Assembly: GCA_965231095.1 (NCBI GenBank) | Contig: OZ246416.1 | Coordinates: 50,938 to 114,937, forward strand | DNA length: 64,000 nt | Direction of reading: 5' to 3' | Source: an uncultured Gammaproteobacteria bacterium | GTDB taxonomy: Bacteria > Patescibacteriota > Patescibacteriia > XYB2-FULL-38-15 | Shown here: one piece after another, positions 47-54,407 of the stretch | Layout: each line of letters starts with the position of its first letter | Position numbering within the stretch: position 1 is the first letter of the stretch | Made by a program: the position numbers and the translations under genes | The notes under the pieces: generated by a model | What the model was told of the DNA's origin: nothing | Seen by the model: the letters and a program-made list of their open reading frames with translations, nothing else | The model's database searches: none

Positions 47-137
47 GGAGAGGTGGCCGAGCGGCTGAAGGCAGCGGTTTGCTAAACCGTTATACGGTCG
101 AAAGTCCGTATCGCGAGTTCGAATCTCGCCCTCTCCG
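47..137 (+). tRNA. tRNA-Ser (anticodon GCU), class II tRNA with long variable arm
   Basis: Acceptor GGAGAGG pairs with CCTCTCC at 130-136 (discriminator G137). D-arm GGCCGAGCGG; anticodon loop uuGCUaa closed by a 5-bp stem; long variable arm; T-arm GAGTTCGAATCTC. ~91 nt. Confidence 0.8.
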
Positions 138-48738: not shown

Positions 48739-49623
48739 TTAAATTTCAAAAATAGCAATTCTATTTCTTCCCGAAAGATCTTGTTTAATCTTAATTTTTG
48801 CGGAAGGGAAGCGGCGTTTGATTAATTTTGTGATGGATTTTTTTTGAGAAGGGTCGATTTCAAAGATTGAAGTAATGGGTGACGAGTAATGGGTAACGAG
48901 GAATTCTATTTGTTGGAGGAGCTCGCGGTAATAATTTAAGCCATCGGTACCGCCGTCAAGCGCCGTTCGTGGTTCGTATTTTTTTATTTCCGGCTGGGTT
49001 TTTTGCCATTGGCGGGTTGTGAGATACGGAAGGTTGGCGACAATTAATAAATTTTCAATTTTCAATTTACAATTTTCAATTTTGCGAATTACAGGTTTTA
49101 GTAAGTCGCCATGGATTAGGGTGACGGCCGCCTCGTGGTGTTTAATATTTTTTCTTGCCACCTCCATGGCGCCGGAGGAAATTTCCGTGGCGAAGATTTT
49201 GGCATTGGGCAGACGGCGGGCAAGTGCGATGGCGATGGCCCCGCTTCCGGTTCCGACATCGACGATTGATGTATCTTGTATCTTGTATTTTGTATTTTGT
49301 ATTTTTCTCAAAACTTCCTCCACTAAAATTTCCGTTTCGGGGCGGGGGATTAAAACATTTTTGTTTACAAAAAAATCCAGGCCAAAAAATTCTTTGAGGC
49401 CAGTGATGTAGGCGATTGGTTCATGTTTGGCGCGGCGGGCGATAAGTTTTTTAAATTTTAACAATTGTGCCGCCGTCAATTTTTTTTCAGAATGCGCGTA
49501 TAAAAATTCTCGCGGTTTTTTTATGACAAAAGATAAAAGAATCTCGGCGTCCAAAGACGGGGAGAGAGTTTTTGATTTTTTTAAAATTTTTATCGCCCAG
49601 ACGATGGATTGTTTGATGGTCAT
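48739..49623 (-). CDS. prmC: release factor glutamine N5-methyltransferase PrmC/HemK with several in-frame tandem-repeat inserts
   Basis: SAM motif VDVGTGSGAIAIALA, NLPY substrate motif; in-frame repeats at 48860-48895, 49040-49090, 49265-49300. Confidence 0.85.
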   Translation of the reverse strand: MTIKQSIVWAIKILKKSKTLSPSLDAEILLSFVIKKPREFLYAHSEKKLTAAQLLKFKKLIARRAKHEPIAYITGLKEFFGLDFFVNKNVLIPRPETEILVEEVLRKIQNTKYKIQDTSIVDVGTGSGAIAIALARRLPNAKIFATEISSGAMEVARKNIKHHEAAVTLIHGDLLKPVIRKIENCKLKIENLLIVANLPYLTTRQWQKTQPEIKKYEPRTALDGGTDGLNYYRELLQQIEFLVTHYSSPITSIFEIDPSQKKSITKLIKRRFPSAKIKIKQDLSGRNRIAIFEI

Positions 49624-49650
49624 ATAAATATTTAAATATTATAACATAAA

Positions 49651-49692
49651 AAATCACCCGAGCGTTGCGTGCGATTGGGCGCGCAAAACTCG
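49651..49692 (-). terminator. intrinsic terminator of island D 197-aa gene
   Basis: Minus strand CACCCGAGttttgcgcgcccaatcgcacgcaacgCTCGGGTGattttttat. Confidence 0.6.
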
Positions 49693-49706
49693 GGTGTGAC
49701 GGTCGG

Positions 49707-50297
49707 TTACGGGGAAGTGATGTCCTTCGTCCCGTCGTAGGGATCGCCGGAGTCGGCGGAATCGTCGGCGGGCGGCGCAGCGGGCGAGACGACCTCGACT
49801 TCCTCCTCGATGTCCTCGGCCACCACGACCGTGGTTTCCGGCGCGTCTTCGAGGATCTCGACCATCTTCATCGCCTGGCGCACACAGGCCGACAGCTCGG
49901 CGGTGGAGAAGGCGTAGGAGAGTTGTTCGAAGGTAACCCGGCGTCCTGGTTCCGTGTCCTTCGACATCCAGTGTTCGATCAGCTTGGCGAGATCATCGTC
50001 GGAGACGCGTTTCAGGATCTCCTCGATCGCGGATTTTGCGCCGTTCTCGATACCGCCGAGCATCGCCTGGCGCATGATGGGCACGGTGTCTTTCTTGTCA
50101 CCGGGCCAGATCCCGAGTAGATCGCCAACGATCTTCTCGAAGGTGTGCACTTGGGCAATGTGAGCCAGGCCGCTGGCCCGGCTCAAATTGATGTGGTGCA
50201 AGATGATCCAGATGTTCAGGACGCCGAGATCCACGAAGTGCTGGAGCATCGCCGCTAGCGTCAACTTCTTGTCTCTTTCCTTCTTGGATTCCGCCAT
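49707..50297 (-). CDS. GC-rich island D gene 2: hypothetical ~197-aa protein (helical, acidic C-terminal tail)
   Basis: MAESKKERDKKLTLAAMLQHFVDLGVLNIWIILHH...; ~62% GC; minus-strand promoter cTTGACAa-N17-TAAGGT at 50342-50370; 5' UTR palindrome CTCCGATTAATCGGAG. Confidence 0.55.
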   Translation of the reverse strand: MAESKKERDKKLTLAAMLQHFVDLGVLNIWIILHHINLSRASGLAHIAQVHTFEKIVGDLLGIWPGDKKDTVPIMRQAMLGGIENGAKSAIEEILKRVSDDDLAKLIEHWMSKDTEPGRRVTFEQLSYAFSTAELSACVRQAMKMVEILEDAPETTVVVAEDIEEEVEVVSPAAPPADDSADSGDPYDGTKDITSP

Positions 50298-50382
50298 TGT
50301 CTTCCACTCGCTCCGATTAATCGGAGTCCTTTCTATCCGCACCTTAGTTTAAAAAATAAAATTTGTCAAGATAAAAAAAGAG

Positions 50383-50445
50383 CCCGTGGATTGCTTGGAG
50401 TTGGGGCACGGGACGTGTCTCCAAAGCAATCCACGGGCTGGGTGA
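50383..50445 (-). terminator. long-stem intrinsic terminator after island D zinc-ribbon gene
   Basis: agcccgtggattgcttggag...ctccaaagcaatccacgggct ~20-bp stem followed on minus strand by ctcttttttt. Confidence 0.6.
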
Positions 50446-50608
50446 TGCCCAGCGGGTGCCGTGAGGCTGGCCGGCTGGGCTCAGTCGCGTGACCCGCCCG
50501 GGGGGTAGGAGGGCACCGGGGAGCCGACGCGAGCTTGGGGAACGGAGAGTTCTCGAGCGAACTCGCAAACTCTCACGTTATTGGTGGGTAAGTTACAGGC
50601 GGGTCTTG

Positions 50609-50881
50609 TCAGGGTCGGGGGCAGTTCCGGACGACATGCATTCGCTTGCGCCTGGCGCGGGCGACGCCGTCCGTGTACTTCTTGCCCTTGCGTTCGGCGA
50701 AAGTGTGCATCGAGCAGTAGTGCCCGGTATTCCCGCTACGGAGAATCGTTCCACAGTCGGGTTCCTGGCATCGCCGCGGCTTGCCATCGTCGGTGCTCCG
50801 ACCGCTGTCGTGCACGTCGCCGAGCGAATTGGCGCCGACCGTGCCGGTACCCTGATCCATTCCGAGCGCGCTCCAGTCCAT
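50609..50881 (-). CDS. GC-rich island D gene 1: 90-aa Cys/His-cluster (zinc-ribbon-like) protein, possibly nucleic-acid binding
   Basis: ...RRCQEPDCGTILRSGNTGHYCSMHTF...; SD GGAGGAGGAAGG before ATG; 5' UTR hairpin ccttgcgt..acgcaagg. Confidence 0.55.
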   Translation of the reverse strand: MDWSALGMDQGTGTVGANSLGDVHDSGRSTDDGKPRRCQEPDCGTILRSGNTGHYCSMHTFAERKGKKYTDGVARARRKRMHVVRNCPRP

Positions 50882-51004
50882 CCTTCCTCCTCCTCAACCT
50901 TCCCTATTATCAACTCGTCCTGTCCACCAGGCCGAGGCTTAGGGCCACCTTCCTTGCGTTTTGACGCGTGCCAATAACGCAAGGCCACCCTGTTTGTTGA
51001 TTTT

Positions 51005-51065
51005 AGAATATAATAAAAAGCTTAATTTGTCAACCCCTTGACAAATTTTAAGATTGTGGTAGAGT
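51005..51065. promoter_or_regulatory. divergent sigma70-type promoter pair with palindromic overlapping -35 boxes (TTGTCAAccccTTGACAA)
   Basis: Plus: TTGACA(51038-43)-N16-TAGAGT(51060-65). Minus: TTGACA-N16-TATTCT (plus agaata 51005-10). Perfect inverted repeat ttgtcaa/ttgacaa around cccc. Confidence 0.55.
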
Positions 51066-51071
51066 GTTCTG

Positions 51072-51388
51072 TAGGGTAATGGGGAGTCCTGTTTGGTTGA
51101 TGCCGGCAGCGCACCGGCGTCGTGGGCAGTCATTTTTTGCTTCACTCTGAATCCGGAACCCTTGGCTGGTGAACAGCGCGTTGTAGCGCGGCTGGCCTTG
51201 TGGCGAAGGACCCACGGAGTGGCCCGACAGGAACCCGGTTCGCGAGCTGCCCGTTAAGCAGACGTGGGCTGAAATCTCCCCAGCGCATCTGATCCTCCAA
51301 GTCCGCTTCGGCGGGCACGGAGGTCACCATTCTTTGCACACCGCTGCATTTCGCGTTGTGCCCGTCGGTCGAACACCCTGTTCGACCG
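51072..51388 (+). ncRNA. candidate ~320-nt GC-rich structured non-coding RNA of unknown class, driven by the island D plus-strand promoter and ending in a strong intrinsic terminator
   Basis: No plus-strand ORF with SD; CCGCuucgGCGG UUCG tetraloop hairpin, several GC stems; terminator GTCGGTCGAACaccctGTTCGACCGACtctttttt at 51354-51388. Confidence 0.45.
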
Positions 51389-51394
51389 ACTCTT

Positions 51395-51418
51395 TTTTAT
51401 ATAAAAAACCGGCCTTGC
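51395..51418 (-). terminator. intrinsic terminator of prfA
   Basis: Minus strand CCGGCCgcaaGGCCGGtttttt, preceded by cccgactaaagtcggg hairpin. Confidence 0.6.
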
Positions 51419-51489
51419 GGCCGGAGGGAACGGAGTCCCGACTTTAGTCGGGTTATACATTGCCCACCCTGAAGAGTGGACTCCAAAAT

Positions 51490-52530
51490 TTAGTTTATAT
51501 CTTTTTTCAATACCTCAATAATTCCGTCCAATTCGCCGTCCATTACGTTATTAATATTGTGCCAACTTTCTTTTACCCGATGATCGGAAACGCGGTCTTG
51601 GGGAAAATTGTAAGTTCTGATTTTTTCCGCGCGCATGGCCGAACCGATTTGCGAACGCCGCGACGCAACTTCTGCCGCCTGGCGTTTTTCTTGTTCCATG
51701 GCAAAAAGACGGGCGCGCAAAACCTGCATGGCTTTTTCCCGGTTTTGCTGCTGCGATCGTTCGTCTTGGCAGGCGACAACAAGCCCGGTTGGAAGATGCG
51801 TAATTCTTACGGCCGAATATGTTGTTTGCACGCTTTGTCCGCCGTGGCCGCCGGATAAAAATGTATCAATGCGCAAATCCTTTGGTTCAATTTTTATATC
51901 AATTTCTTCGGCTTCGGGAAGTACGGCGACCGAGGCGGTTGAGGTATGAACCCGTCCGCTTTTTTCCGTGTCCGGAACGCGCTGAACGCGGTGCACGCCG
52001 CTTTCAAATTTTAAATTTCCCCAGGCGCCTTTTCCAATGACGGAAAAAATAATTTCTTTAAAACCGCCGAGGTCAGTGCGGCTTGAGGATATTAATCTTG
52101 TCTGCCAACCTTTCCATTCGGCAAACATGGAATACATTCTGAATAATTGCGCGGCAAAAAGCGCGGCCTCGTCTCCGCCCGCGCCGGCCCGGATTTCCAC
52201 AATAATATTTCTTTTGTCCAGCGGATCTTTTGGCGTCAGCTCTTCTTTGATTTCTATTTCAAGCGCTGCCTTATCTTGCCGAATTTTTTCCAACTCATCT
52301 TTCGCGATGGCGACCAGTTCCGGAACATTTTGTTTTGCGACTGTTTCTGTGTCGGCTTCTTCTTTTTCCCATTTATGAAATTTTTTTATTTTTTCCATCA
52401 CGTCTTTTATCTCGCTGTATTCACGGGAAACGGTTTTTAATTTTTCCGGATTAGAAACCACCTCGGGGCGGGCAAGTTCCGCTTCGAGTTCGGCAAAACG
52501 TTTTTCAGCTTTTTGGATTTCCGGGAGCAT
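51490..52530 (-). CDS. prfA: peptide chain release factor 1
   Basis: GGQ motif [12 protein letters not shown], PxT-type recognition motif RVPDTE, RF-1 size 346 aa; normally directly upstream of prmC. Confidence 0.85.
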
Positions 52531-52605
52531 AATTTAAATATTAGTTTATTCTAACATAAAAACATGATAACAAAAACGTCACCATGTTTTTTATGATTGG
52601 AATAG

Positions 52606-52863
52606 CTACTTTGTTTTTTTCGCTCTCGGTTTCTTTTCTTTTTTTGTTGCCGCCATAGACGCCTTCTTTTCCATTTTTTCTTTGAATTTTTCCACGCGTC
52701 TGGCCGAATCAACTAATTTCTGTTTGCCGGTGTAGAACGGATGGCAGGCAGAACACAACTCAACCTTTATTTCTTTTAAGGTTGAGCCGACGGTAAAAGC
52801 GTTGCCGCAGGCGCAAGTCACTTTTGCTTTTGGATAATATTCTGGGTGAATTTCTTTTTTCAT
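52606..52863 (-). CDS. rpmE: 50S ribosomal protein L31
   Basis: [23 protein letters not shown]...[10 protein letters not shown]. Confidence 0.9.
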
Positions 52864-52925
52864 AAAATAGATTATTTATTTACATTAATCTTAATTTAAC
52901 ATAAGGCCGTGAGTTTGGCAAGGGG

Positions 52926-52956
52926 TTGACAAAATTACGGGGTGGAGTAATAAGAT
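52926..52956 (+). promoter_or_regulatory. sigma70-type promoter of island E (TTGACA ... TAAGAT)
   Basis: ggggTTGACAaaattacggggtggagtaaTAAGATgag. Confidence 0.5.
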
Positions 52957-52987
52957 GAGTAGGGGTTGCCACAAAAGGAGGTGTTCT

Positions 52988-53224
52988 ATGGCAAGAAGAA
53001 GTTGGAGTTTCGAGCATCGGGGTACGGAAGGCGTCATCAAGACGCCTGACGGGGAGCACGTCGTCCATTCCAAAGAGGAGGCCAAGCGGCACTTGCAAGA
53101 GGGTGCACACCTGAAATATATCAGCTCTTCGATTGCCGGCCCTACCCTCGCGGAGCGGGACGAGGCCAGGGAATGGAGAGAGGCGGTGAGGCAGGTCAAT
53201 GAGTCCAGCCTTCCCGACAAGTAG
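52988..53224 (+). CDS. GC-rich island E: hypothetical 78-aa protein
   Basis: MARRSWSFEHRGTEGVIKTPDGEHVVHSKEEAKRHLQEG...; SD aaaGGAGGtgttctATG; terminator 53233-53285 with nested tccga-gaaa-tcgga hairpin. Confidence 0.55.
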   Translation: MARRSWSFEHRGTEGVIKTPDGEHVVHSKEEAKRHLQEGAHLKYISSSIAGPTLAERDEAREWREAVRQVNESSLPDK

Positions 53225-53232
53225 TCGGACAT

Positions 53233-53285
53233 CGGTTGTGTTGGTCGGCAGGAAATCCGAGAAATCGGAGAGTACTGCCGGCCGT
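53233..53285 (+). terminator. intrinsic terminator of island E with nested GAAA-tetraloop hairpin
   Basis: GTCGGCAGgaaaTCCGAgaaaTCGGAgagtaCTGCCGGCcgttttttt. Confidence 0.6.
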
Positions 53286-53621
53286 TTTTTTATTTTCAAA
53301 AATCTCTCCCCCTCCTTTCGAAGGAGGGGTTAGGGGTGGTTTTTAAAAACTCCCACCCCACCTAACCTCCCCTCGGGCAGGGGAGGAATATTGAGCATTT
53401 GCCCTTGCCCCCACACCAATTTCAGCGAGGCCATTTTTATCCGAGTTTAAAATAAAAAAATTGGTGTGGGGGCTTGCATTATTTTTGCTTTTGTGTAAAA
53501 ATAGATGAAAGTCATTTATTAATAGTAATCCCACATGTTTTGCCTTTAAAACTTGTTCCTGATCCCCGCCACTGCGGGGACCCGCAAGTTTTGGCAAAAC
53601 AGAGGTTAAAAAGGAAAATTT

Positions 53622-54407
53622 ATGCCAGAGATCCCAACAATGTTGGAAATGCTCCAGGCCGGTGTTCATTTTGGACACAAGGCCTCAAAGTGGCATCCGA
53701 AAATGAAGCCGTTTATTTTTGGAGAACGGAGCGAGGTCCACATCATCAACTTAGAAGAAACGGCGAAAAAATTAAAAGAAGCGTTAGAATTTGTCAGAAA
53801 AACAACAGCCGCGGGCGGAGTTGTTCTTTTTGTCGGTTCAAAAGAGCAAGCCAAAGAAATTGTGAAGCGCCACGCAAAAGACGCCGGCATGCCTTATGTT
53901 ACGACTCGTTGGCTCGGCGGAACTTTTACAAATTTTAAAACTATCAAGAGTGTGACTGATCGGTTTACTGATTTAAAAAACAAAACAGCGACCGGCGGAC
54001 TCGCGAAGTACACCAAAAAAGAGCAGTTGAATTTCCAAAAAGAAATTGTGAAATTGGAAGAATTGGTTGGCGGCATTGAAACTTTAAAGAAATTGCCGGA
54101 AGCGATTTTTGTCGTTGACGTCAGGGCGGAAAAAACCGCGGTGGCCGAAGCGAGAAATAGAAAAGTTCCGGTGGTCGCTCTTTGCGATACAAATATTAAT
54201 CCGGAAGATGTTGATTATCCGGTTCCTTCAAACGATGACGCGGTAAAAGCGATTGAAATGATGGTGGGACTTTTCGCCGCGGTCGCGAAAGAGGGAAAAG
54301 CGGAGTTTGAATCAAAAAGAGGCGCGGCTCCGGCTGCGGAAAAACCGGCGGCTCCAACTCCAACTCCGGCTCCGGTTACGGAGGTGAAAGAGGAAGAGAA
54401 AAAATAA
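53622..54407 (+). CDS. rpsB: 30S ribosomal protein S2
   Basis: MLEMLQAGVHFGHKASKWHPKM...; Pro/Ala-rich C-terminal tail. Confidence 0.9.
   Translation: MPEIPTMLEMLQAGVHFGHKASKWHPKMKPFIFGERSEVHIINLEETAKKLKEALEFVRKTTAAGGVVLFVGSKEQAKEIVKRHAKDAGMPYVTTRWLGGTFTNFKTIKSVTDRFTDLKNKTATGGLAKYTKKEQLNFQKEIVKLEELVGGIETLKKLPEAIFVVDVRAEKTAVAEARNRKVPVVALCDTNINPEDVDYPVPSNDDAVKAIEMMVGLFAAVAKEGKAEFESKRGAAPAAEKPAAPTPTPAPVTEVKEEEKK

What the first reader, a model, noticed from the sequence alone, without database searches (positions are those of the whole stretch)
51072..51388. Candidate novel structured sRNA (GC-rich, ~320 nt) with own promoter and terminator
The region downstream of TTGACA-N16-TAGAGT has no SD-preceded ORF on the plus strand. 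It is ~62% GC and contains stable motifs (CCGCuucgGCGG UUCG tetraloop, several 5-8 bp GC stems). It ends in the intrinsic terminator GTCGGTCGAAC-accct-GTTCGACCGAC+U7. I compared it with RNase P RNA and tmRNA consensus elements: only weak partial matches (for example GACAGGAACCCGG resembling the RNase P 3' ACAGAACCCGG, and CUAAAGUCGGGACUCC on the opposite strand), so the class is undetermined.
Basis: partly seen in the sequence, partly recalled or inferred. Interest (0 to 1): 0.7.

Follow-up and report, generated by a model that had tools for sequence, protein, structure and literature searches.

The report
Orphan structured RNA gene beside prfA
A roughly 330-base gene in a tiny-genome (Patescibacteria) bacterium makes a folded RNA rather than a protein; it matches no described RNA family, a few close relatives keep it with its fold preserved, and what it does is unknown.

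Summary
Window 51071-51398 (+) has a near-consensus promoter (TTGACA-N16-TGgTAGAGT), a 12-bp intrinsic terminator with a U-run, and 61.5% GC against 43.8% for the window.

It is a real, non-coding, structured RNA gene:
- It folds better than shuffles on the + strand only (z = -3.9, against -1.8 on the minus strand).
- Homologues in two further related lineages give z of about -4.
- Across four distinct sequences, 96.8% of predicted pairs form, and 12 pairs show changes on both sides (shuffles 3.6 +/- 1.6).
- No reading frame survives the indels.

Rfam 15 gives nothing, even at E <= 10. ARAGORN gives nothing. It is not a remnant of prs, which fills this slot in some relatives.

The gene always lies tail-to-tail with the prfA terminator, but its other neighbour varies. 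It is missing from the closest relatives, and one of them keeps a decayed promoter. It is therefore dispensable and has probably been lost repeatedly.

Best reading: a new, narrowly distributed orphan RNA that acts in trans through its fold. The partner and the function are inferred, not shown. Interest is moderate.

The parts
51038..51065 (+). Promoter of the RNA gene: -35 TTGACA (51038-51043), 16-nt spacer, extended -10 TGgTAGAGT (51057-51065).
   Evidence: scores it 10 of 12 with TG. It is conserved in all homologues, for example TTGACA-N17-TGaTATAGT in L006.
51071..51398 (+). The RNA itself, about 328 nt. The start is inferred as 6-7 nt after the -10 (G/UAGGGUAAUGGGGAG...). The end is inferred as the U-run.
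   Evidence: Strand-specific fold z = -3.86. Homologues: L006:4208-4552(-), L020:5140-5481(-), L026:3232-3573(-). Covariation. No conserved ORF. No Rfam family.
51081..51281 (+). 5' domain of about 200 nt. It is closed by the invariant helix GGGGAG (51081-51086) / CUCCCC (51276-51281). Inside are UCCUGU/ACAGGA, a CCGG...CCGG hairpin, a variable U- or A-rich linker, the helix CACUCUG/CGGAGUG around a three-tier sub-domain, and a long hairpin (51236-51271) with a variable tip.
   Evidence: Consensus fold. Helices 2-9: 5 of the 8 show changes on both sides. The L006 MFE fold reproduces most of the same helices independently.
51290..51326 (+). Hairpin H4: UGA-U-CCUCC AA GUCCGC UUCG GCGGGC AC GGAGG UCA. 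About 14 pairs, one U bulge, a 2x2 internal loop and a UUCG loop.
   Evidence: Helix 10: 100% paired, 2 pairs changed on both sides (G-C to A-U and similar in L020 and L026). The sequence is almost invariant across lineages.
51336..51361 (+). Hairpin H5 (GCACA.CCG ... CGC.UGUGC) with a variable loop.
   Evidence: Helix 11: 2 pairs changed on both sides (GCACA/UGUGC against GCCAU/UUGGC in L006).
51364..51398 (+). Intrinsic terminator: a 12-bp stem (51364-51390) plus UCUUUUUU.
   Evidence: Helix 12: 100% paired, 2 pairs changed on both sides.
51399..51424 (-). Convergent terminator of prfA (CCGGCCGCAAGGCCGG + U-run). It shares the AT spacer UUUUUUAUAUAAAAAA with the RNA terminator. This tail-to-tail arrangement is conserved in every lineage that has the RNA.
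   Evidence: alignments; for L006.
51005..51033 (-). Divergent promoter of the small-ORF operon. Its -35 lies 4 bp from the RNA's -35, which forms the palindrome AATTTGTCAA-CCCC-TTGACAAATT (51024-51047).
   Evidence: 10 of 12; inverted repeat I3. Conserved in relatives with and without the RNA.

Best explanation
Window 51071-51398 (+) is a stand-alone gene for a non-coding RNA of about 330 nt, of a family not yet described. The organism is a Falkowbacteria-like Patescibacteria bacterium.

A strong sigma-70-type promoter with an extended -10 and a strong intrinsic terminator should yield a discrete transcript. That RNA folds into a closed multi-helix 5' domain of about 200 nt, followed by two conserved hairpins and the terminator.

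Most likely mechanism (inferred): the RNA acts in trans through its folded shape, as a scaffold or binding partner for a protein or small ligand. This is how other orphan large bacterial RNAs are thought to act. Short antisense pairing or cis control of a neighbouring gene is less likely.

The RNA is an accessory gene, not an essential one. It was probably ancestral at the 3' end of prfA in this clade and has been lost repeatedly.

My probabilities: real, transcribed, structured ncRNA of a new family, about 0.85. Structure-dependent action in trans, about 0.35-0.4.
For: Shown here:
- A near-consensus promoter and terminator bracket the element. Both are conserved in every homologue.
- Folding stability is strand-specific: z = -3.86 against -1.76. 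The homologues give z = -3.97 and -4.10.
- There are four distinct sequences from three lineages, 67-99% identical. Of predicted pair cells, 96.8% form. Twelve pairs changed on both sides, against 3.6 +/- 1.6 in shuffles (0 of 500 reach 12) and 0-3 when partners are slid. Eight of 12 helices carry such changes.
- Indels of 1, 2, 4 and 15 nt break every frame.
- No Rfam family matches at E <= 10, and there is no tmRNA or tRNA.
- It is not a prs remnant (tblastn).
- Purifying selection: L020 and L026 are 99.1% identical in the RNA but 92% in prfA DNA. The window and L020 are nearly identical across the 5' domain.
- No gene lies downstream on the same strand. The next feature is the convergent prfA terminator.
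- The RNA does not depend on its other neighbours. It occurs with a type-A small ORF (window), a type-B small ORF (L020), no small or 196-aa ORF (L026), or prs (L006).
- It is dispensable. It is absent from L017 and L018, whose flanks are 86-90% identical to the window, and from L012, L001, L023 and L028.
- L002 keeps a decayed copy of the RNA promoter followed by unrelated sequence, which points to loss rather than gain.

Inferred: transcription itself, and the mode of action.
Against: - There are no expression data.
- Only four distinct sequences exist, effectively three lineages, two of them close. The covariation is suggestive but too thin for a formal test such as R-scape.
- The structure was predicted on the same alignment on which the pairs were counted.
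- No partner protein or ligand is identified.
- Predicted unpaired columns are less conserved than paired ones (44% against 71% invariant). This gives no special support for sequence-specific junctions.
- The invariable adjacency to prfA, and the back-to-back promoters, could mean a local (cis) role instead.
- All cassettes in this slot are GC-rich. The high GC is therefore not by itself a sign of RNA structure.
Confidence: 0.55

Rival explanations
1. It is a local regulator of the flanking genes. Either conditional read-through of its terminator makes an antisense RNA to the convergent prfA, or its strong promoter competes with the small-ORF/prmC-operon promoter whose -35 lies 4 bp away. In that case the RNA product would matter less than the act of transcription.
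For: The gene is always tail-to-tail with the prfA terminator and shares an AT spacer with it, while its other flank varies. The two -35 boxes form a palindrome 4-5 bp apart in the window, L020 and L026. A TGTCAA...TTGACA pair also persists in L006.
Against: The terminator is strong (12 bp plus U7) and preserved by compensatory changes. I saw no conserved alternative (anti-terminator) pairing by inspection. The two facing terminators look like insulation. Transcription alone would not need 200 or more nt of conserved, covarying structure under purifying selection. prfA and the operon leader are intact and similar in lineages without the RNA.
Confidence: 0.12
2. It is a classical base-pairing sRNA. 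It would regulate mRNAs elsewhere in the genome, or the conserved leader next door, through a short exposed seed such as 5' UAGGGU, GAACCC or CCUCC.
For: It has the typical sRNA gene layout: its own promoter, an intrinsic terminator and an intergenic position. Its 5' UAGGGU is complementary to the invariant GCCCUA of the neighbouring leader.
Against: It is much larger and more intricately folded than typical seed-pairing sRNAs. A complementarity scan against the 5' regions of local genes found no match that is long and conserved across the RNA+ lineages. The energy-based scan was uninformative. The leader is present in every lineage, but the RNA is not. CCUCC is sequestered in hairpin H4.
Confidence: 0.13
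3. It is cargo of a foreign or mobile gene pool, for example an RNA from a plasmid, phage or defence cassette. It would have entered the hypervariable GC-rich slot between prfA and prmC, and its function would relate to that element rather than to the host.
For: The slot holds interchangeable GC-rich cassettes of about 60% GC in a 44% GC genome. These are the RNA, prs, two unrelated small-ORF types and a 196-aa ORF, in different combinations even among close relatives. Presence and absence are patchy.
Against: There is no match in phage or plasmid collections or in IMG/VR beyond chance. No integrase, transposase, terminal repeats or target duplication are present; the only flanking repeat is a 9-mer at chance level. 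RNA divergence ranks in the same order as prfA divergence, as expected for vertical descent. The gene always sits at the same site and in the same orientation, and L002 keeps a promoter remnant.
Confidence: 0.12
4. It is a highly diverged housekeeping RNA (RNase P RNA, 6S, tmRNA or SRP RNA) that Rfam models fail to recognise in Patescibacteria.
For: Its size is similar to RNase P RNA, and it carries the string ACAGGAACCCGG, which resembles CR-V ACAGAACCCGG.
Against: No hit to any of these models at E <= 10, on the element or on its homologue. ARAGORN is negative. There is no GGAAAGUCC-type partner on the same strand. ACAGGA pairs locally with UCCUGU, and the 5' and 3' ends do not pair. The gene is missing at this locus in sister lineages, although a copy elsewhere in those genomes cannot be excluded.
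Confidence: 0.03
5. It encodes a small protein, or is a decaying pseudogene, for example of prs, which occupies this slot in relatives.
For: In the window a 54-codon ORF starts at a TTG (51093), 6 nt after GGGGAG. prs lies between prfA and the small ORF in L006, L012 and L001.
Against: Frames are broken by indels between homologues. Matching peptide segments jump between frames, and start codons are not conserved. tblastn of three Prs proteins gives only noise. In L006 the RNA and an intact prs coexist.
Confidence: 0.02

Closest known systems
Orphan large structured bacterial ncRNAs found by comparative genomics (raiA motif RNA, OLE RNA and similar; the GC-rich-intergenic-region approach, PMC11109978)
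   Same: It lies in a GC-rich intergenic region of an AT-rich genome. It is transcribed independently, has a multi-helix fold supported by compensatory changes, has no coding potential, and has no function evident from gene context.
   Different: It shows no sequence or structure match to any of them in Rfam 15. Its distribution is far narrower: three lineages of one Falkowbacteria-like clade. With fewer than five distinct representatives it would rank only as a low-ranking candidate by the criteria in PMC11109978.
Bacterial RNase P RNA (Rfam RNaseP_bact_a / RNaseP_bact_b)
   Same: Similar length, high GC, and a string (ACAGGAACCCGG) that resembles the CR-V element.
   Different: No covariance-model hit. 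No CR-I partner on the same strand. No P1 pairing of the two ends. The 3' third is a string of separate hairpins. The gene is dispensable at this locus.
Terminator-ended intergenic sRNAs (the general class, for example Qrr, the best but sub-threshold Rfam match on the L006 homologue)
   Same: Own promoter, Rho-independent terminator, intergenic position.
   Different: It is three to four times longer and has a closed 200-nt multi-helix domain. The Qrr match is 22 bits against a 50-bit cut-off and rests mainly on the terminator.

Membership tests
RNase P RNA (bacterial) | Significant match to the Rfam covariance models | tested here: not met
   No hit at E <= 10 on the 4.2-kb region, on the element alone, or on the L006 homologue.
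RNase P RNA (bacterial) | CR-I (GAGGAAAGUCC...) and CR-V (ACAGAACCCGGCUUA) on one strand forming helix P4, with the 5' and 3' ends paired in P1 | tested here: not met
   Only a CR-V-like string is present. It pairs with UCCUGU 140 nt upstream. The AAAGUCGGGACUCC string is on the opposite strand, in the prfA 3' UTR. The ends do not pair.
RNase P RNA (bacterial) | Universal presence as an essential gene | tested here: inconclusive
   Absent at this locus in L017, L018, L012, L001, L023 and L028. The rest of those genomes could not be searched.
tmRNA | tRNA-like domain plus a tag reading frame | tested here: not met
   ARAGORN finds nothing in 49000-54000. No Rfam hit.
6S RNA | Rod-like fold with paired ends and a large central bubble; match to the Rfam model | tested here: not met
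   No Rfam hit. The fold is a branched 5' domain plus separate 3' hairpins.
Riboswitch or other cis-regulatory 5' leader | A regulated gene downstream on the same strand | tested here: not met
   The terminator is followed by the convergent prfA terminator in the window, L006, L020 and L026. No riboswitch family matches.
Stand-alone structured ncRNA gene (generic class) | Own promoter and terminator, conserved in homologues | tested here: met
Stand-alone structured ncRNA gene (generic class) | Secondary structure maintained by compensatory substitutions | tested here: met
   Twelve pairs changed on both sides, against 3.6 +/- 1.6 in shuffles and 0-3 in slid controls; 96.8% paired. Caveat: only four sequences.
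Stand-alone structured ncRNA gene (generic class) | No conserved reading frame | tested here: met
Stand-alone structured ncRNA gene (generic class) | Detected as a discrete transcript | not testable with these tools
   No transcriptome data are available here.

The most novel reading that the evidence does not exclude
The RNA is the founding member of a new class of large RNAs with tertiary structure, either a ribozyme or the RNA core of an unknown ribonucleoprotein. The class would be confined to Falkowbacteria-like Patescibacteria. The RNA would be one module of a cassette-like, hypervariable GC-rich slot between prfA and prmC whose contents (this RNA, prs, two small-ORF types, a helical 196-aa protein) are shuffled between close strains. 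Its fixed attachment to the release-factor-1 gene would reflect a link to translation termination.
Probability: 0.12. Interest if true: 0.7.

Novelty: new member of a known kind. Interest (0 to 1): 0.45.

Why it matters
Structured RNAs longer than 300 nt are rare in bacteria. Several earlier orphans of this size later proved to be ribozymes or ribonucleoprotein cores.

Patescibacteria have tiny genomes with little spare DNA. A 330-nt RNA gene kept under purifying selection there suggests a real function.

Its natural presence and absence among near-identical strains gives a ready comparison for finding that function. The same locus also shows that a slot between two translation-termination genes works as a cassette exchange site in these organisms.

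Against this, the family is very narrowly distributed and nothing yet points to a specific activity.

Tried and rejected
1. Known RNA families. Rfam at gathering score on the whole window, and at E <= 10 on 4.2 kb, on the element and on the L006 homologue, gave nothing credible. ARAGORN gave nothing.
2. prs pseudogene. tblastn of three Prs proteins gave only noise, and there is no prs anywhere in the window.
3. Small protein. Rejected by frame analysis.
4. Exact-pattern scans for more homologues.
   - Genome contigs returned 4 chance hits in GC-rich coding DNA.
   - Metagenome contigs returned only the L006 organism again.
   - In hindsight both patterns contained GCGCATCTGATCC, which is GCGTTTTCGATCC in L020 and L026.
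   - Three viral-contig scans gave chance hits only.
   - blastn against the phage and plasmid collections gave none.
5. Paralogues. nhmmer --max with a four-sequence profile over the window and all 31 related loci (237 kb) found no second copy and no diverged copy in the RNA-minus loci.
6. Target search. RNAduplex over 58 gene starts was uninformative because it allows long loops. A scan for contiguous complementarity to local gene starts found nothing conserved.
7. The idea that the RNA mimics, or was duplicated from, the neighbouring leader. Local alignment scores were mostly within the range of shuffled leaders: 2% of shuffles reached the window score, 34% the L020 score and 79% the L006 score.
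8. Mobile-element signatures. No terminal repeats or target duplication.
9. Neighbouring proteins as clues.
   - The 196-aa ORF is all-helical (AF2 pLDDT 70.5). It has no PDB fold match (best E 0.9) and no Pfam, PHROG or NCBIfam family.
   - The 90-aa ORF has only a weak CxxC...HxxC-type zinc-ribbon flavour.
   - Neither co-varies with presence of the RNA.
10. The afdb50 fold library was unavailable.
11. Literature searches found no description of this RNA.

Full report
OBSERVATION

- A promoter-like site, TTGACA (51038) - 16 nt - TAGAGT (ends 51065), is preceded by TGg, an extended -10. It scores 10 of 12 and is joint best in 49400-53600. That region holds 11 such sites against 3.2 +/- 1.6 in shuffles.
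- A 12-bp inverted repeat at 51364-51390 is followed by TCTTTTTT.
- The interval is 61.5% GC, against 43.8% for the window.
- As RNA, the + strand folds at -145.4 kcal/mol against -125.9 +/- 5.1 for dinucleotide shuffles (z = -3.86). The minus strand gives z = -1.76.

One detail needs correcting. A 54-codon ORF (51093-51257) starts at a TTG 6 nt after GGGGAG, so the plus strand is not free of SD-preceded ORFs. That ORF is not conserved (see 'It is non-coding and structured').

CONTEXT

PrfA of the window is 91% identical to a protein labelled Candidatus Falkowbacteria bacterium. The window comes from an 886-kb contig. The organism is therefore a Patescibacteria (CPR) bacterium.

On the minus strand lie:
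- rpmE (52606-52863);
- prfA (51490-52530);
- a 90-aa ORF with a CxxC...HxxC pattern (50609-50881);
- a 196-aa ORF (49707-50297);
- prmC (48739-49623).

The candidate RNA sits on the plus strand between prfA and the 90-aa ORF. It converges on prfA and diverges from the 90-aa ORF. The whole stretch 49650-51400 is GC-rich.

KNOWN FAMILIES

- Rfam 15 gives only two tRNAs in the whole window at gathering score.
- At E <= 10 it gives nothing for the element, whether searched inside 4.2 kb or alone.
- The L006 homologue yields only noise: Qrr at 22 bits against a 50-bit cut-off, resting mainly on the terminator.
- ARAGORN finds no tRNA or tmRNA.

The RNase P-like strings are superficial. ACAGGA pairs locally with UCCUGU. 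The AAAGUCGGGACUCC string is on the other strand, in the prfA 3' UTR.

HOMOLOGUES

I reached relatives through the neighbouring proteins and through PrfA.

The RNA is present in three further sets of contigs:
- L006-L009 and L019, one organism, 69% identical to the window;
- L020-L022, 87% identical;
- L026-L027, 87% identical to the window and 99% to L020.

In all of them the promoter, the terminator and the tail-to-tail junction with the prfA terminator (UUUUUUAUAU(A/C)AAAAAA) are conserved.

The other flank differs:
- a type-A small ORF in the window;
- an unrelated type-B small ORF in L020;
- a type-B remnant fused to prmC, with no 196-aa ORF, in L026;
- an intact prs gene in L006.

The RNA is absent, as a clean indel of about 350 nt, from L017 and L018, whose flanks are 86-90% identical to the window. 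It is also absent from L012, L001, L023 and L028. L002 keeps a decayed copy of the RNA promoter followed by unrelated sequence.

On the PrfA tree each RNA-plus lineage has an RNA-minus sister. Yet RNA divergence ranks in the same order as prfA divergence. The simplest history is an ancestral gene at this site that has been lost several times. The gene is therefore dispensable.

IT IS NON-CODING AND STRUCTURED

Indels of 1, 2, 4 and 15 nt separate the homologues. Peptide matches jump between frames on both strands. The TTG ORF has no start and a shifted frame in L006, and an alternative AUG ORF is lost in L020 and L026. tblastn with three Prs proteins shows that it is not a prs remnant.

The homologues are as unusually stable as the window copy (z = -3.97 and -4.10). 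The L006 minimum-energy fold reproduces most of the same helices on its own.

On the four distinct sequences the consensus fold has 102 pairs in 12 helices.
- 96.8% of pair cells form standard pairs; slid controls give 37-46%.
- 12 pairs changed on both sides. Shuffles give 3.6 +/- 1.6 (none of 500 reaches 12), and slid controls give 0-3.
- Eight helices carry such changes.

Caveats: there are only four sequences, and the structure was predicted on the same alignment.

Purifying selection is visible. L020 and L026 differ by 0.9% in the RNA but by 8% in prfA DNA.

ANATOMY (window coordinates)

- An invariant helix, GGGGAG (51081-51086) / CUCCCC (51276-51281), closes a domain of about 200 nt.
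- Inside that domain are UCCUGU/ACAGGA, a CCGG...CCGG hairpin, a variable U- or A-rich linker, CACUCUG/CGGAGUG around a three-tier sub-domain, and a long hairpin with a variable tip.
- Next comes a nearly invariant hairpin with a UUCG loop (51290-51326). It buries CCUCC against GGAGG.
- After that come a variable hairpin (51336-51361) and the terminator (51364-51398).

HOW IT MOST LIKELY WORKS

Shown: a conserved, self-contained transcription unit. It has a conserved fold, no coding capacity and no downstream gene to control. It does not depend on any neighbour except by position next to prfA.

Inferred: the RNA acts in trans through its shape, as a partner for a protein or small ligand. I give this about 0.35-0.4.

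Rivals:
- Local action, either antisense read-through into prfA or competition between the two promoters, whose -35 boxes lie 4 bp apart and form a palindrome. The strong terminator, itself kept by compensatory changes, and the long conserved fold argue against this.
- Seed-pairing sRNA. I found no conserved target.
- Cargo of a mobile gene pool. The slot is a mosaic of GC-rich cassettes. However, there are no mobility genes or repeats, no phage or plasmid matches, and the divergence looks vertical.
- Diverged housekeeping RNA, or a coding gene. Both are essentially excluded.

COMPARISON AND NOVELTY

The element works like, and is best filed with, the orphan structured ncRNAs found in GC-rich intergenic regions of AT-rich genomes. 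It belongs to no described family.

By the ranking used in PMC11109978, fewer than five distinct representatives make it a low-ranking candidate on numbers alone, despite its size and complex fold.

The neighbouring proteins gave no clue. The 196-aa protein is helical and has no fold or family match.

VERDICT

This is a genuine new RNA family of unknown function with a very narrow known distribution. It is of moderate interest.

My two large-collection scans used patterns that proved too strict, so the true range of the family is still open.

Noticed in passing
window 50882-51004 (minus strand); also L006:5872-6000, L012, L001, L002, L017, L018, L020, L023, L026, L028: A 5' leader of about 110 nt upstream of the small ORF is conserved in all 11 lineages, whichever small-ORF type follows. 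It reads GGAAGGUGGCCCUA .. CUCGGCCYGAUGGACRGGACGAG .. AUAGGGAAGGU, then the SD. The invariant helix CCCUA/UAGGG encloses a hairpin with CG<->UA compensatory changes, and an upstream hairpin also covaries. There is no Rfam match. It is a candidate cis-regulatory element for the small ORF-(196 aa)-prmC operon.
   Followed up: partly
window 49650-51400 and the equivalent slot in L001, L002, L006, L012, L017, L018, L020, L023, L026, L028: The slot between prfA and prmC is a mosaic. The RNA (present or absent), prs (present or absent), one of two unrelated small ORFs (A: RRCQEPGCGT..YCSLH..RMHVVR; B: GVFGPDGTPISRDG..) and a helical ORF of about 170-205 aa (present or absent) occur in different combinations, even among strains with 86-90% identical flanks. 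All cassettes are about 60% GC in genomes of about 44% GC.
   Followed up: partly
window 52955-53299: A second GC-rich patch. On the plus strand a 78-aa ORF (52989-53225, MARRSWSFEHRGTEG...) has a good SD (AAAGGAGGTG). It is shared with L026 at 86% nt identity. It replaces the AT-rich 141-aa membrane-protein gene that relatives carry upstream of rpmE. The 139-aa minus-strand ORF listed there is probably spurious.
   Followed up: partly
window 51425-51480 (minus strand): The prfA 3' UTR has a compound hairpin, GGAGUCC..ACCCGACUAAAGUCGGG..ACUCC, ahead of the terminator. It is shared with L017, and a related one occurs in L023.
   Followed up: no
window 53300-53400: A long imperfect palindrome (CTCTCCCCCTCCTTTCGAAGGAGGGG..GGGGTGG..CCACCCC..CCTCCCCTCGGGCAGGGGAGG) lies between the 78-aa ORF and rpsB. 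It draws only sub-threshold miRNA-precursor matches in Rfam.
   Followed up: no
window 51024-51047: A perfect 10-bp inverted repeat, AATTTGTCAA-CCCC-TTGACAAATT, is formed by the two back-to-back -35 boxes of the divergent promoters. The equivalent palindromes are TTTGTCAA-GGGGG-TTGACAAA in L026 and TGTCAA-N9-TTGACA in L006.
   Followed up: no
L028:4480-4700: In L028 the 196-aa ORF is replaced by about 200 nt of GC-rich sequence with no called gene. It ends in a strong terminator (GCCCGCGTACTGC...GCAGTACGCGGGCATTTTTTT) and could be another RNA cassette.
   Followed up: no
window 47-137 and 807-878: Two tRNA genes are the only Rfam gathering-score hits in the 64-kb window. The first has a long variable arm.
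   Followed up: no
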